In this document: positions 54,001 to 60,000 of the stretch, one piece after another
How positions within the stretch are numbered: the stretch's first letter is position 1
How the letters are laid out: each line of letters begins with the position of its first letter
Assembly (NCBI RefSeq): GCF_013167455.1
Contig: NZ_CP038328.1
Direction: 5' to 3' (one strand)
Source: Escherichia coli O157:H7
Lineage (GTDB): Bacteria; Pseudomonadota; Gammaproteobacteria; Enterobacterales; Enterobacteriaceae
DNA: 64,000 nucleotides
Program-made: the position numbers

Positions 54001-57000
54001 TTTGTGAATAATCGGACTTAAGTGTTACTTTTTCATTGTTTGAATATTTATCAATTCTAGTATCCGTTATACCAGAAAGCATAATAATGCCTTGCTGAGC
54101 ACTCTCAGGTATAATATTAATATCGAAGTCTGCTGGTAAAACTACAACTTTACCGCTAAATAAAACCTCATCATTAACTATTCGCCGGACTTCTATCTGT
54201 CCTTTTGGCATTTCTGATGCGACAGAATACCAGGCATTATTACCTGAACGAATGGAACGCCAAAAAAGTTCTTTCTCCGGTACAATGCCATATTGCAGAT
54301 CCTTTTTCCAACCGATCTTCGGCCAGGCTCGATGGACAGGATAATCCGATTTAACCAGTTCAACTTCTGTCGATTTAATATAATATTCAATCGCAGAATC
54401 ATAAAGTTGCTGGGTGCGAATTGTACAAACAGCACCATCATGTAAAACAACGCTAAATACTCCACTTATTTTAGTTAAGCTGCGTTCACTGTTTTTCAGC
54501 AACCTTGGGATATCAAACTCACCTTCTCCACTAATATCTAAATGGCTATTTTTCGGTAGCGAAATAAACAGAGCATTTAGCCTGGAACTCACAGACCCCA
54601 TACCAACAAGTTTTAGCTGCGATTCACTCTCATTCATCGCTTCAAAAACCCAGGGAAGTTCTTCAGTAAGTTCATAACCGCCTTTTGGAATTGTGTGACC
54701 TAACAGAATTGGACCTTCATGAAGCGACAATGAGATTTCGGCCATTGCATCTGCACCAGAGAGTTTTTGCATCGCAATAGGTAATAACTCGACCCGCCAA
54801 TCTTGCTGCTCATAACGGCTTAGCATTGCCAACCTTGCCCCGCCATTTTTCCATTTTCCTGAAATGATGAGTCGGGTCTGCTCCGGCTGAATATGGCATT
54901 CAAACAAAGAGGTTAACTGTTCTGTACGCATTGTGGCCGGGAATCGGAACCGGGCATCGCAATACCAACTGTCATCAACATCGACCCAGATTCTTTCAAC
55001 CTGAAGACTACTTGCACTGCGTATTTCAGAAGATTGAGAAAGTAATCGCCTTACAATCTCTGCAGCATTCGCTTCGGGGAGAACGAGTGGAAGTTGAAGA
55101 TGCCAGTCTGGAGAGAGCTTACGTAATGCAGAAACGGGATCACTGCTATGAGGAGGATGCTCACTAAGTAATCGGCAGAGAGTCTCGCAGAATTCACCGG
55201 CTATTTCATAGACCAGTTCGTTTTGCATTGTGACAGGAATCGTATCGCCTAATTCTTGTGCAATTTTAGCGGCAGGATATTGAGATGATTGCCCACGAAG
55301 CGCCTGATATATCCTTCTGAAATAGGTAATCAAATAACCGCTCTCATTTTCAATCATGCGGATAGGCAAACCACCTTCACAAGCCAGTGTATGCAGATAA
55401 CCCGAAGCTTGTCCCAGGTTTCTTATCTTTCTTTTCCAGTAGCGAATGCCATCATTAACCAGCTTCTGTCGATGAACATACGGAACTTTCCAGTTAATAG
55501 AATCTAAAATTGTGTCCCATTTAGGGTGTCCGACCGTATGAGTCCGGCGGATAAACTCTGCGGCATATATGCTAAATAGAACATCGCTATAGGAAATGAA
55601 TATCGTTCTTGGATAACTACGGGGGGCATATGTACGCAGTAGTTCTGCCAAACTTTCGTACTCTGTATCAGTACAACGGTAAGCATATAACGCCCGTCCA
55701 TCAGCTCCGGATAATGAACGGCGACTAAAAAACATGTTAAGCCATTGCAAAAGTGGGTTAACTGGAGTTTTCACAAGCAACCTGCCTTCCTTTGATACAA
55801 TTCGTAACAGGTTACTATCATCATAAAAAAGCTCAACCCGATGAACTCGCTAAAAATGAGACAAATCATTTATATCTCGAAAAAACTTGTTACAATCATG
55901 AGCGCTACACCGAACTTAACCATATAAATTATGTGTGTTTTGTTTATTTTTTAAACGATTACAACTATCCATTATTTACACAGGTATCAAAATGTTAGCG
56001 CAGCTTTTTGAGCAGTTGTTTCAATCGATAGACTCTACACTGATCACCAATATTTTCATCTGGGCTGTTATATTCGTATTTTTATCAGCGTGGTGGTGTG
56101 ACAAAAAAAATATACATAGTAAGTTTAGAGAATATGCTCCAACCTTAATGGGGGCATTAGGTATTCTGGGTACTTTCATTGGTATTATTATTGGTTTACT
56201 CAATTTTAATACCGAAAGTATTGATACCAGCATCCCCGTATTATTAGGTGGCCTAAAAACAGCATTCATTACAAGCATTGTAGGTATGTTTTTTGCCATT
56301 TTATTTAATGGAATGGATGCTTTCTTTTTTGCCAATAAACGAAGTGCGTTAGCAGAAAATAACCCTGAATCTGTTACACCTGAACATATCTATCATGAAT
56401 TAAAAGAGCAGAACCAGACTCTGACTAAATTAGTCTCGGGTATTAACGGTGATAGTGAAGGTTCTCTTATTGCTCAAATAAAATTACTACGTACTGAGAT
56501 TAGCGATTCCTCGCAGGCACAATTAGCTAATCACACTCATTTCAGTAATAAGCTTTGGGAACAACTTGAACAATTTGCAGATCTAATGGCAAAAGGTGCT
56601 ACAGAACAAATTATTGATGCTTTGCGACAAGTCATTATTGATTTTAATCAAAATTTAACTGAACAGTTTGGTGAAAACTTTAAAGCTCTTGATGCCTCTG
56701 TAAAAAAACTTGTTGAGTGGCAGGGAAATTATAAAACGCAAATTGAGCAGATGTCAGAACAATATCAACAAAGTGTCGAGTCCCTGGTTGAAACAAAAAC
56801 TGCGGTTGCAGGGATTTGGGAAGAATGTAAAGAAATTCCTCTGGCTATGTCTGAACTGCGTGAAGTGCTTCAGGTGAACCAACATCAAATCAGCGAACTC
56901 TCCCGCCATTTAGAAACCTTTGTCGCCATCCGCGATAAAGCTACAACCGTATTACCTGAAATACAGAACAAAATGGCTGAAGTGGGTGAACTGCTGAAAT

Positions 57001-60000
57001 CCGGAGCTGCAAATGTTAGTGCATCTCTTGAGCAAACCAGCCAGCAAATACTTCTTAATGCAGATTCAATGCGCGTTGCCCTGGATGAAGGTACCGAAGG
57101 ATTCAGACAATCGGTTACCCAAACACAACAAGCATTTGCCTCGATGGCACATGATGTCAGCAATTCCTCCGAAACCCTAACCAGCACGTTAGGTGAAACA
57201 ATTACTGAAATGAAACAAAGTGGTGAAGAATTCCTGAAATCACTAGAGTCGCACTCGAAAGAATTGCATAGAAATATGGAACAAAATACGACGAATGTGA
57301 TTGATATGTTCAGTAAGACTGGTGAAAAGATTAACCATCAACTATCCAGTAATGCCGATAATATGTTTGATTCAATCCAGACATCATTTGATAAGGCAAG
57401 TGCAGGGCTGACTTCTCAAGTCAGAGAATCAATTGAAAAATTTGCTCTATCCATCAACGAGCAGTTACATGCTTTTGAGCAAGCAACTGAACGTGAAATG
57501 AACCGTGAAATGCAATCATTAGGTAATGCTCTGCTTTCAATCAGCAAAGGTTTTGTCGGTAACTATGAAAAACTTATTAAAGATTACCAAATAGTTATGG
57601 GACAGTTACAAGCATTAATTTCTGCTAATAAACATCGCGGGTAATCGATCATGGATAAGATTATAGGGAAACAATTACCTAAAAAAGATCAAGATAATGA
57701 ACATTGGGTATCCATGTCGGACCTAATGGCTGGGCTGATGATGGTTTTTATGTTCATATCTATTGCTTATATGCACTACGTACGTATTGAAAAAGAAAAA
57801 ATTAAAGAAGTTGCCGTAGCCTACGAGAATGCTCAGTTACAGCTTTATAATGCTCTGGATATTGAGTTTGCAAAGGATTTACAAGACTGGGATGCAGAGA
57901 TCGATAAACAGACTCTGGAGGTTCGATTTAAATCACCGGATGTTTTATTTGGCTTAGGAAGCACAGAGCTAAAACCAAAGTTTAAACTCATTCTTGACGA
58001 CTTCTTTCCTCGCTACCTAAAAGTTCTAGATAATTATCAGGAACATATTACTGAAGTCCGCATTGAAGGTCACACAAGTACTGACTGGACAGGAACAACG
58101 AATCCTGATATTGCTTATTTTAATAATATGGCACTATCGCAAGGTCGTACACGTGCAGTATTACAATACGTTTATGACATAAAAAATATCGCGACACACC
58201 AACAATGGGTTAAAAGTAAATTTGCCGCAGTAGGTTATTCATCTGCACATCCCATTCTTGATAAAACCGGCAAGGAGGATCCTAATCGCTCTCGTCGTGT
58301 CACCTTCAAAGTTGTAACAAATGCCGAGTTGCAGATTAGAAAGATTATTCAGGAGTAAGAGATGAAATTATCTATCGACATTTCAGAACTTATTCAATTA
58401 GGGAAGAAAATGTTACCAGAAGGAGTCGATTTTTTTCTGGATGAATCCCCTATTGACTTTGATCCTATAGATATTGAGTTATCCACGGGTAAAGAAGTTA
58501 GTATCGAAGATCTTGACCCTGGTAGCGGGCTTATCTCTTATCATGGCCGCCAGGTTCTTTTATATATTCGGGACCATTCAGGGCGTTATGATGCGGCTAT
58601 CGTAGATGGCGAAAAAGGAAAACGTTTTCATATTGCCTGGTGCAGAACTCTTGATGAAATGCGCCATAAAAATCGATTTGAAAGGTATCATGCAACTAAC
58701 CGCATAGATGGTTTATTCGAAATTGATGATGGTTCAGGTCGGAGCCAGGATGTTGATTTACGGGTATGTATGAATTGCCTCGAACGACTTAATTATAAAG
58801 GAAGTATTGATAAACAACGAAAAAGAGAGATTTTTAAATCATTCTCATTAAATGAGTTTTTTTCAGATTATAGTACTTGTTTTCGTCATATGCCTAAGGG
58901 TATCTATGACAAAACAAATAGTGGGTATGTCGAAAACTGGAAGGAAATATCTAAAGAAATACGAGAAAAGGCAAATTATGTTTGTAATGATTGTGGCGTG
59001 AATTTATCAACCGCCAAAAACTTGTGCCATGTCCATCATAAAAATGGCATCAAATATGATAATCACCATGAAAACCTTCTTGTTCTGTGCAAGGATTGCC
59101 ATCGAAAACAGCCCCTCCACGAAGGTATATTCGTTACCCAAGCAGAGATGGCTATCATTCAACGTTTACGTTCCCAACAAGGGTTATTAAAAGCAGAATC
59201 CTGGAATGAAATATATGACCTGACTGATCCATCAGTGCATGGTGATATTAATATGATGCAACATAAAGGCTTTCAACCTCCTGTTCCTGGGTTAGATCTT
59301 CCAAACTCAGAACATGAAATTATTGCAACCGTAGAAGCTGCATGGCCAGGCCTTAAAATTGCAGTTAACCTTACTCCCGCCGAAGTCGAAGGATGGAGAA
59401 TATATACCGTGGGTGAGCTGGTTAAAGAAATACAAACAGGAGCCTTTACGCCAGCAAAATTGTAAATTCTAAAACTCCGTGAAAGTTAAGACTTTCACGG
59501 AAGATAAATAAAATTTCCCTGATTTGTGGCTCAAATTACAAAAGTAGTTTATGGCATAACTTGTCTGATTTTTATGGTGTAACAGGTATAAAAGCATATG
59601 CTATGGTTCGCCTCATACTTAAAACTTCCCTCATATGGGTGAAGGTTAAAGCTTGGTAGACAGAAGACAGTCACAATGAATAAAGCAATAAATTGATGTC
59701 GCACGCGCCGATGGGCATGGCGGGTAATGTGACTTTTGTACACAACGGCAAGGCTTATGTTACTGGCGGTGTTAACCAGAACATCTTCAATGGCTATTTT
59801 GAAGATCTCAACGAGGCTGGAAAAGATTCAGCAGCTATAGACAAGATCAATGCCCATTATTTCGACAAAAAAGCAGAAGATTATTTCTTCAATAAGTTTT
59901 TGTTGTCTTTTGATCCCTCAACACAGCAATGGATCTTCACTTGCAGGCTTGAACAGCAGAAAATTTGCGAGCATGATTGCAATTATTTCACTGCCTGGGA

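What the first reader, a model, noticed from the sequence alone, without database searches (positions are those of the whole stretch)
55935..59465. Zorya type II-like zorA-zorB-zorE trio adjacent to the helicase modules
Three tightly spaced plus-strand genes: a MotA/ExbB-like membrane protein with a roughly 400-aa coiled-coil tail, a MotB/OmpA-like protein with the conserved TM aspartate, and an HNH nuclease. That is the described ZorA-ZorB-ZorE arrangement. It is divergent from the Druantia-like pair across a 154-bp AT-rich region, so three defence-type modules are stacked in about 30 kb.
Basis: partly seen in the sequence, partly recalled or inferred. Interest (0 to 1): 0.6.

Follow-up and report, generated by a model that had tools for sequence, protein, structure and literature searches.

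The report
Known E. coli O157 Zorya II locus

Summary

- **Source.** The window is E. coli O157:H7 chromosome, in the leuX-tRNA island (O-island 172).
- **Family membership.** All three proteins exceed NCBI's curated equivalog cut-offs: ZorA2 1139 bits against 700, ZorB2 444 against 400, ZorE 694 against 600.
- **Identity to tested systems.** They carry the same RefSeq protein accessions as strain EDL933. They differ from the E. coli ATCC 8739 prototype by 2/550, 1/235 and 1/367 residues.
- **Published experiments.** Deleting zorA, zorB, zorE or zorABE in EDL933 sensitises it to T7-like phages.
- **Published mechanism.** ZorAB forms a 5:2 MotAB-like ion-driven complex. ZorE is an HNH nickase that moves to the membrane on infection.

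Corrections: zorA starts at ATG 55992 (550 aa), not GTG 55935, so the divergent intergenic region is 211 bp, not 154. It is Zorya II itself, not "Zorya II-like".

Small addition: ZorE's C-terminal extension is Vsr-like and homologous to the C-terminus of ArmC.

The parts
55992..57644 (+). zorA2: a 550-aa MotA/ExbB-family inner-membrane protein. It has about 3 TM segments in residues 1-114, followed by a 445-aa helical cytoplasmic tail.
   Evidence: NCBIfam NF041792 scores 1139.5 bits against a cut-off of 700, aligned end to end 1-550. PADLOC ZorA2 gives E=1.3e-302. Pfam MotA_ExbB gives E=1.6e-6. PDB 8VVI chain F (S. kujiense type II ZorA) gives E=1.7e-37. The tail periodicity has z=10-15. RefSeq places the start at this ATG. 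Identity to ATCC 8739 ZorA is 548/550.
57651..58358 (+). zorB2: a 235-aa MotB-like protein. It has one N-terminal TM helix carrying Asp24 and a C-terminal OmpA-like peptidoglycan-binding domain.
   Evidence: NCBIfam NF041787 scores 443.8 bits against a cut-off of 400. PADLOC ZorB2 gives E=2.2e-104. Pfam OmpA covers residues 99-213 at E=3.8e-8. PDB 8VVI chain A gives E=1.5e-52, with D24 aligned to the structure's D21 (the paper is read). Identity to ATCC 8739 ZorB is 234/235.
58362..59465 (+). zorE: a 367-aa effector nuclease with three regions. These are an N-terminal Zn-binding domain (H90, C94, C136, C139), a central HNH domain (about residues 205-255) and a C-terminal Vsr-like/PD-(D/E)xK-like extension (about residues 275-360).
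55781..55991 (.). A 211-bp AT-rich (31.8% GC) divergent intergenic region between druH (minus strand) and zorA2 (plus strand). It presumably holds the promoters of both operons.
   Evidence: The region is 100% identical to ATCC 8739 over window 55700-56100. Sigma-70-like sites on the plus strand lie at 55792-55821 (10/12 matches) and 55869-55896 (9/12, with an extended TG). The number of such sites in the region does not exceed shuffles, so these are only candidates. The published description is 'divergently transcribed'.
59476..59501 (+). An 11-bp perfect hairpin starting 11 nt after the zorE stop codon, a candidate transcript-end or stabilising structure.
   Evidence: The RNA fold gives -16 kcal/mol, z=-4.9 against shuffles. 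The terminator scan did not flag it because no T-run follows. It is conserved in ATCC 8739 with an A-to-G change at window 59491, which turns a U-A pair into a U-G wobble.
46107..55780 (-). Neighbour, not part of Zorya: Druantia type III. druH is at 52421-55780 and druE at 46107-52421.
   Evidence: PADLOC DruH3 scores 2554.9 bits and DruE3 scores 2184.9 bits. Published synergy with Zorya II is read.
29636..45883 (-). Neighbour, not part of Zorya: ARMADA type II. armA is at 43025-45883, armB at 38088-43022, armC at 31747-38088 and armD at 29636-31750.
   Evidence: The PADLOC best hits are DrmD/BrxHII-like, a type IIG/DrmMI-like MTase, a DruE/YprA-like helicase and a GajB-like helicase, in the published ArmA-B-C-D order. 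The papers are read.

Best explanation
This is the type II Zorya anti-phage system of E. coli O157:H7 (zorA2-zorB2-zorE, z5894-z5896 of O-island 172).

Five ZorA subunits surround two ZorB N-terminal helices in the inner membrane, forming a MotAB-like ion-driven complex. ZorB's periplasmic OmpA-like domain binds peptidoglycan, and ZorA's five C-terminal tails bundle into a long cytoplasmic rod.

When a phage perturbs the envelope, ZorB engages the cell wall and the ion path through Asp24 opens. The signal passes down the ZorA tail. The cytoplasmic HNH nickase ZorE is then recruited to the membrane, where its raised local concentration nicks DNA and stops T7-like (Autographiviridae) infection.

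Shown in the literature for identical or 99.6-99.7% identical proteins:
- 5:2 stoichiometry, on a homologue.
- A requirement for D24, the tail, the peptidoglycan-binding domain and ZorE H226.
- ZorE nicking activity.
- Infection-dependent membrane recruitment of ZorE.
- Loss of T7 resistance on deletion in EDL933.

Inferred: what exactly is sensed, whether ZorA rotates, and how the tail engages ZorE.
For: - Family membership: all three proteins exceed the NCBIfam equivalog cut-offs, and their top PADLOC hits are the subtype-2 models.
- Identity: the DNA is 100% identical to many O157:H7 chromosomes annotated zorA2/zorB2/zorE. EDL933 has the same WP accessions. Identity to the ATCC 8739 prototype is 548/550, 234/235 and 366/367.
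- Residues: ZorE H90, Y189, H226, K231, N234/H235, N238/L239 and H247/H253, all shown by mutagenesis to matter, are present. Most of them are invariant or nearly invariant across 100 diverse homologues.
- Experiments read from papers: ZorAB 5:2 complex, D24N, tail and PG-domain deletions, ZorE nickase activity and membrane recruitment (PMC11890865). In EDL933, ΔzorA, ΔzorB, ΔzorE and ΔzorABE are sensitive to T7, with EOP raised 10^2-10^3-fold for Autographiviridae (bioRxiv 10.1101/2025.09.22.677730).
Against: Nothing argues against the identity of the locus.

Weak points in the sequence-only HNH assignment:
- Pfam gives no significant HNH hit for ZorE (HNH_3, E=0.081).
- phmmer and the profile search against PDB are not significant.
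- Foldseek gives no hit below E=0.08.

On mechanism, the trigger and the ZorA-tail to ZorE coupling are models, not observations. The outcome is also disputed: host-damaging population immunity or cell-sparing direct defence, and the paper itself notes the discrepancy. For phage Bas37, ZorE can act without ZorAB when Druantia III is present.
Confidence: 0.96

Rival explanations
1. In this island ZorE works mainly as an accessory nuclease of the adjacent Druantia III (and perhaps ARMADA II) helicase-nucleases. It would cut DNA intermediates that they generate, independently of ZorAB sensing.
For: The published genetics are the main support. Against Bas37, DruH+DruE+ZorE reproduce the full combined phenotype without ZorAB. 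[quoted passage not shown] This ZorE has that extension, and it is homologous to the ArmC C-terminus (E=1e-8). The array is conserved as a block in two different tRNA islands.
Against: Against T7 and T3, ZorA and ZorB are each required, in EDL933 and in heterologous hosts. No stable ZorE-Druantia complex was detected. In EDL933 the Druantia III-Zorya II synergy is described as weak and limited to a few phages. This reading therefore adds to the canonical pathway and does not replace it.
Confidence: 0.2
2. Zorya II acts by abortive infection through membrane depolarisation. An opened ZorAB channel collapses the proton motive force and kills the infected cell, with ZorE secondary. This was the original 2018 hypothesis.
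For: ZorAB is homologous to proton-conducting stators, and the ion-path Asp is required.
Against: No depolarisation or permeabilisation was detected with DiBAC4(3) or propidium iodide, during expression or during infection. ZorE is essential, and the DNA damage depends on ZorE.
Confidence: 0.03
3. The genes are a housekeeping MotAB/ExbBD/TolQR-type paralogue with an unrelated HNH gene next to it, or a decayed, non-functional relic of a defence system.
For: Only generic resemblance supports this. ZorB gives weak hits to the MotB/MotS/OmpA families, and ZorA hits Pfam MotA_ExbB.
Against: The Zorya II equivalog scores exceed those of any motility or Tol family by hundreds of bits. The ORFs are intact and conserved at >=99% identity in 479 genomes. 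The locus lies in a horizontally acquired tRNA-Leu island beside other defence systems. Deleting it causes phage sensitivity and no growth defect.
Confidence: 0.01

Closest known systems
Zorya II (zorABE, z5894-z5896) on O-island 172 of E. coli O157:H7 EDL933 (bioRxiv 10.1101/2025.09.22.677730)
   Same: The proteins are identical, with the same RefSeq accessions WP_000880885.1, WP_000357807.1 and WP_000777275.1. The neighbours are the same too: druHE divergent, armABCD downstream, then a nanM relic, a PT-DNA restriction endonuclease and the leuX island.
   Different: Nothing detectable differs. The window is this locus in an O157:H7 genome.
Zorya type II of E. coli ATCC 8739, the experimental prototype (Doron et al. 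2018, from my own knowledge; Mariano et al. 2025, PMC11890865)
   Same: Gene order, protein lengths (550, 235, 367 aa) and the promoter region are the same. Identity is 548/550, 234/235 and 366/367 residues. It lies in the same ARMADA-Druantia-Zorya block, including the nanM relic.
   Different: There are four amino-acid substitutions: ZorA Q220E and S470G, ZorB L65I and ZorE P314Q. The ATCC 8739 block sits at tRNA-Phe (pheU), not tRNA-Leu, and is followed by IS5 rather than the PT-DNA restriction endonuclease.
Sulfuricurvum kujiense type II ZorA5B2 cryo-EM structure (PDB 8VVI)
   Same: The family and architecture are the same. ZorA matches at E=1.7e-37 over residues 42-383, and ZorB at E=1.5e-52 over residues 13-234, with the ion-path Asp aligned.
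   Different: It is a distant orthologue. Its ZorA is shorter (378 aa against 550), so its tail is about 170 residues shorter, and the tail is unresolved in the map.
Zorya type I (ZorABCD; PDB 8QYD-series and 8VVN) and type III (ZorABFG)
   Same: They share the ZorAB 5:2 ion-driven sensor with a long ZorA tail that recruits a DNA-targeting effector.
   Different: The effector differs: ZorC plus the ZorD SNF2 helicase-nuclease in type I, ZorF/ZorG in type III, against the single HNH nickase ZorE here. Type I ZorA is larger, and similarity to this ZorA is confined to the TM core (E about 1e-5).
Flagellar stator MotA5B2 and the ExbBD/TolQR 5:2 motors
   Same: They share the membrane core, the conserved Asp on the B-subunit TM helix and the OmpA-like peptidoglycan-binding domain.
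   Different: They have no cytoplasmic helical-bundle tail and no nuclease partner. Their output is torque on a rotor or energy transduction, not immunity. Sequence scores to these families fall far below their cut-offs.

Membership tests
Zorya type II (ZorA2-ZorB2-ZorE) | ZorA: a MotA/ExbB-family membrane protein with a long C-terminal helical cytoplasmic tail | tested here: met
   NCBIfam NF041792 scores 1139.5 bits against a cut-off of 700, over full length. Pfam MotA_ExbB gives E=1.6e-6. PDB 8VVI_F gives E=1.7e-37. There are TM segments in residues 12-114 and a 445-aa tail with 3.5-3.7-residue periodicity, z=10-15.
Zorya type II (ZorA2-ZorB2-ZorE) | ZorB: a MotB-like protein with a conserved Asp on its single TM helix and an OmpA-like peptidoglycan-binding domain | tested here: met
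   NF041787 scores 443.8 bits against a cut-off of 400. D24 lies in SMSDLMAGL within TM segment 20-44 and aligns to D21 of 8VVI chain A at E=1.5e-52. Pfam OmpA gives E=3.8e-8.
Zorya type II (ZorA2-ZorB2-ZorE) | ZorE: an HNH-fold nuclease as the third gene | tested here: met
   [not shown]
Zorya type II (ZorA2-ZorB2-ZorE) | Operon arrangement zorA-zorB-zorE, co-directional and tightly spaced, without ZorC/ZorD (type I) or ZorF/ZorG (type III) | tested here: met
   The intergenic gaps are 6 and 3 bp. The best PADLOC models are all subtype 2, with subtypes 1 and 3 far weaker. The flanking genes are DruH on one side and a nanM relic plus a PT-DNA REase on the other.
Zorya type II (ZorA2-ZorB2-ZorE) | Confers protection against phage, with all three genes required | not testable with these tools
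   This is not computable. It is published for identical proteins in the native host: EDL933 ΔzorA, ΔzorB, ΔzorE and ΔzorABE are T7-sensitive, with EOP up 10^2-10^3-fold for Autographiviridae. It is also published for the 99.6-99.7% identical ATCC 8739 system.
Zorya type II (ZorA2-ZorB2-ZorE) | ZorA5:ZorB2 stoichiometry and an ion-driven mechanism | not testable with these tools
   This is inferred from homology to the 5:2 cryo-EM complex 8VVI and from the published loss of defence in the D24N mutant.
Flagellar stator MotAB / ExbBD / TolQR (considered and rejected) | Scores above the family cut-offs for MotA/MotB, ExbB/D or TolQ/R, in a motility or Tol/Ton gene context | tested here: not met
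   The best MotB/MotS hits score 36-40 bits against cut-offs of 259-300. No MotA, ExbB or TolQ NCBIfam model is reported for ZorA. The context is a horizontally acquired defence island.

The most novel reading that the evidence does not exclude
The only part that may go beyond the literature concerns ZorE's C-terminal extension (about residues 275-360). It is a Vsr-type PD-(D/E)xK domain with conserved D289, E325 and K332, and it is homologous to the extreme C-terminal domain of the ARMADA II helicase ArmC encoded 21 kb away in the same island.

[quoted passage not shown] It could, for example, explain the published ZorAB-independent use of ZorE.
Probability: 0.1. Interest if true: 0.35.

Novelty: already known. 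Interest (0 to 1): 0.07.

Why it matters
The finding adds little for discovery. The locus is annotated by NCBI's pipeline in about 10% of complete E. coli genomes (593 of 5426), and its mechanism, its distribution and its synergy with its neighbours are the subject of several recent papers.

Its practical relevance is already recognised. This island accounts for much of the phage resistance of EHEC O157:H7, which matters for phage therapy and biocontrol.

Tried and rejected
HNH assignment for ZorE:
- The Pfam scan gave no significant HNH hit (HNH_3, E=0.081).
- phmmer of full-length ZorE against PDB gave nothing.
- phmmer of the 74-aa HNH core returned only spurious C2H2 zinc-finger and capsid hits.
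- A 100-sequence profile against PDB put an HNH endonuclease (5H0M) and McrA near the top, but at non-significant E=0.28 and 0.54.
- Foldseek against PDB gave no hit below E=0.08, although HNH proteins dominated the list.

Side checks:
- ZorE's C-terminus against the DruE C-terminus gave no similarity. One attempt failed on a frame error.

Locating the ATCC 8739 locus:
- The supplements of PMC12458937 held no coordinates.
- The pheV island turned out to carry the fec operon instead.
- The locus was found at pheU.
- Loci L003-L005 were not available to the scripting machine, so the comparisons were made with protein comparison and DNA alignment.

Regulatory scans:
- Promoter-like and terminator-like sites in 55600-59900 were no more numerous than in shuffles (13 against 14±4, and 3 against 2.7±1.8). 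No promoter is claimed.

The readings of a housekeeping stator paralogue, a decayed relic and depolarisation-based abortive infection were considered and rejected, as set out under the rival explanations.
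Full report
**1. What is in the sequence**

Listing ORFs over 52-64 kb shows three intact, co-directional plus-strand ORFs. They are 55935-57644, 57651-58358 (235 aa) and 58362-59465 (367 aa), and the gaps between them are 6 and 3 bp.

The first ORF's GTG at 55935 is not the real start. The NCBIfam and PADLOC ZorA2 models both begin at residue 20 of that ORF. RefSeq annotates the ATG at 55992. The published protein is 550 aa. With that start, the region between zorA and the divergent druH start (55780) is 211 bp at 31.8% GC, not 154 bp.

**2. Family assignment**

All three proteins exceed NCBI's curated equivalog cut-offs for type II Zorya:

| Protein | Model | Score (bits) | Cut-off (bits) |
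|---|---|---|---|
| ZorA2 | NF041792 | 1139.5 | 700 |
| ZorB2 | NF041787 | 443.8 | 400 |
| ZorE | NF041791 | 694.1 | 600 |

PADLOC gives the subtype-2 models at E=1.3e-302, 2.2e-104 and 4.2e-176. The type I and type III models score far lower.

**3.

- **ZorA.** It has hydrophobic TM segments within residues 12-114 and a Pfam MotA_ExbB hit (E=1.6e-6). It matches the cryo-EM type II ZorA of Sulfuricurvum kujiense (8VVI chain F) at E=1.7e-37. Its 445-residue tail has only four prolines. The tail's hydrophobic periodicity of 3.5-3.7 residues lies 10-15 sd above shuffles, as expected for the published helical-bundle rod.
- **ZorB.** It has one TM segment carrying Asp24 (SMSDLMAGL) and a Pfam OmpA domain. 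It matches 8VVI chain A at E=1.5e-52, with D24 aligned to that structure's D21.

**4. Where the window comes from, and what is already known**

The region 55700-59600 is 100% identical to many E. coli O157:H7 chromosomes, where it is annotated zorA2, zorB2 and zorE. In total 593 of 5426 complete E. coli genomes hold a match, and 479 of them are >=99% identical.

The locus lies in the tRNA-Leu (leuX) island. Strain EDL933 carries the same non-redundant protein accessions as the 100%-identical strain TR01. The window's proteins are therefore those of EDL933's z5894-z5896.

A 2025 preprint describes exactly this locus, O-island 172 (10.1101/2025.09.22.677730):
- zorABE is divergently transcribed from druHE, with armABCD downstream.
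- The three systems co-occur in 426 E. coli genomes, including 277 O157:H7.
- ΔzorABE raises sensitivity to Autographiviridae 10^2-10^3-fold.
- ΔzorA, ΔzorB and ΔzorE each abolish resistance to T7.

I also located the prototype Zorya II of E. coli ATCC 8739 at the pheU island of NC_010468.1. Its proteins are 548/550, 234/235 and 366/367 identical to the window's, and the promoter region is identical.

**5. Mechanism**

The following are shown for the ATCC 8739 system or for a structural homologue (PMC11890865):
- ZorA5B2 has a MotAB-like architecture.
- Defence is lost with ZorB D24N, with tail deletion (Δ106-550) and with deletion of the peptidoglycan-binding domain (Δ45-235).
- ZorE is a Mg/Mn-dependent nickase.
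- There is no membrane depolarisation. ZorE-dependent single-strand breaks appear during infection, and ZorE is recruited to the membrane by ZorAB only on infection.

A 2026 preprint (PMC13192584) maps the functional ZorE residues H90, Y189, H226, K231, N234/H235, N238/L239 and H247/H253. All of them are present here.

The trigger (peptidoglycan perturbation), ZorA rotation and the way the tail engages ZorE remain a model.

A partly rival route is also published. Against phage Bas37, ZorE acts with Druantia III and without ZorAB.

**6. Context**

The minus-strand neighbours are Druantia III: DruH scores 2554.9 bits and DruE 2184.9 bits. Beyond them lies a four-gene cluster whose domain order matches the published ARMADA type II: a BrxHII/DrmD-like helicase, a PglX/DrmMI-like MTase, a YprA-like helicase and a GajB-like helicase.

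From armD (29636) to zorE (59465) the array spans 29.8 kb. The conserved tripartite array, its carriage on tRNA-Phe and tRNA-Leu elements and its synergy are all published.

To the left of the array the window is core chromosome: iatD, uxu, gntP, fim and nanC-nanM, with a truncated nanS and a transposase pseudogene at the boundary.

**7. Things noticed beyond the finding**

- ZorE's C-terminal extension (about residues 275-360) is present in 82 of the 100 aligned homologues. It carries conserved W281, D289, P307, E325, W328, K332 and W345.
- That extension is 33% identical to the extreme C-terminus of ArmC (E=1e-8; PADLOC E=5.8e-9). It shows no similarity to the C-terminus of DruE.
- A 245-bp nanM relic follows zorE in both O157:H7 and ATCC 8739. 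It is 93.5% identical to the intact nanM elsewhere in the window.
- Similarity between the two islands ends at about 59951, where ATCC 8739 has IS5 and O157:H7 has a PT-DNA-binding HNH restriction endonuclease.
- A stable hairpin lies 11 nt after the zorE stop.

**8. Verdict**

The system is already known, annotated and experimentally characterised in this very strain background, so interest is low.

Noticed in passing
[not shown]
   Followed up: partly
window 59689-59933 (also 59656-59691): A 245-bp relic of nanM (N-acetylneuraminate epimerase) lies just downstream of zorE. It is 93.5% identical to the intact nanM at window 26344-26588. The same relic follows zorE in ATCC 8739, whose array sits at tRNA-Phe. 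The relic therefore travels with the ARMADA-Druantia-Zorya block and records an earlier insertion next to the nan genes.
   Followed up: partly
window 60006-60857 (+): This gene is a phosphorothioated-DNA-binding HNH restriction endonuclease: NCBIfam NF045808 scores 416.6 bits against a cut-off of 180, with PADLOC HNH at E=8.5e-21. It makes a fourth defence gene directly after Zorya II. It is absent at this position in ATCC 8739, where IS5 is inserted at the point where similarity ends, about window 59951.
   Followed up: partly
window 59476-59501 (+): An 11-bp perfect hairpin starts 11 nt after the zorE stop. It folds at -16 kcal/mol, z=-4.9. The terminator scan did not flag it because it lacks a T-run. 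ATCC 8739 has an A-to-G change in it that keeps the pairing as a U-G wobble.
   Followed up: partly
window 61362-62144 (-), 61056-61243 (-), 28265-28960 and 27162-27728: Mobile-element debris brackets the defence array. On the right are a truncated tyrosine integrase and a transposase fragment. On the left are a frameshifted transposase and a truncated nanS. The intact island integrase and tRNA-Leu lie about 9-11 kb beyond the window's right end. This fits the published view of successive insertions that became immobilised.
   Followed up: no
related genomes (hit H1, NZ_CP111101.1): In strain FRIK1989 the zorABE locus is interrupted by an IS66-family ISEc8 element. Separately, 7 of the 597 matching places in E. 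coli genomes are on plasmids.
   Followed up: no
window 56307-57641 (ZorA aa 106-550): The hydrophobic periodicity of the ZorA tail peaks at 3.6-3.7 residues (z=13-15), not at the canonical heptad value of 3.5 (z=9.7). This hints at a straight or hendecad-like helical bundle, not a classic left-handed coiled coil.
   Followed up: no
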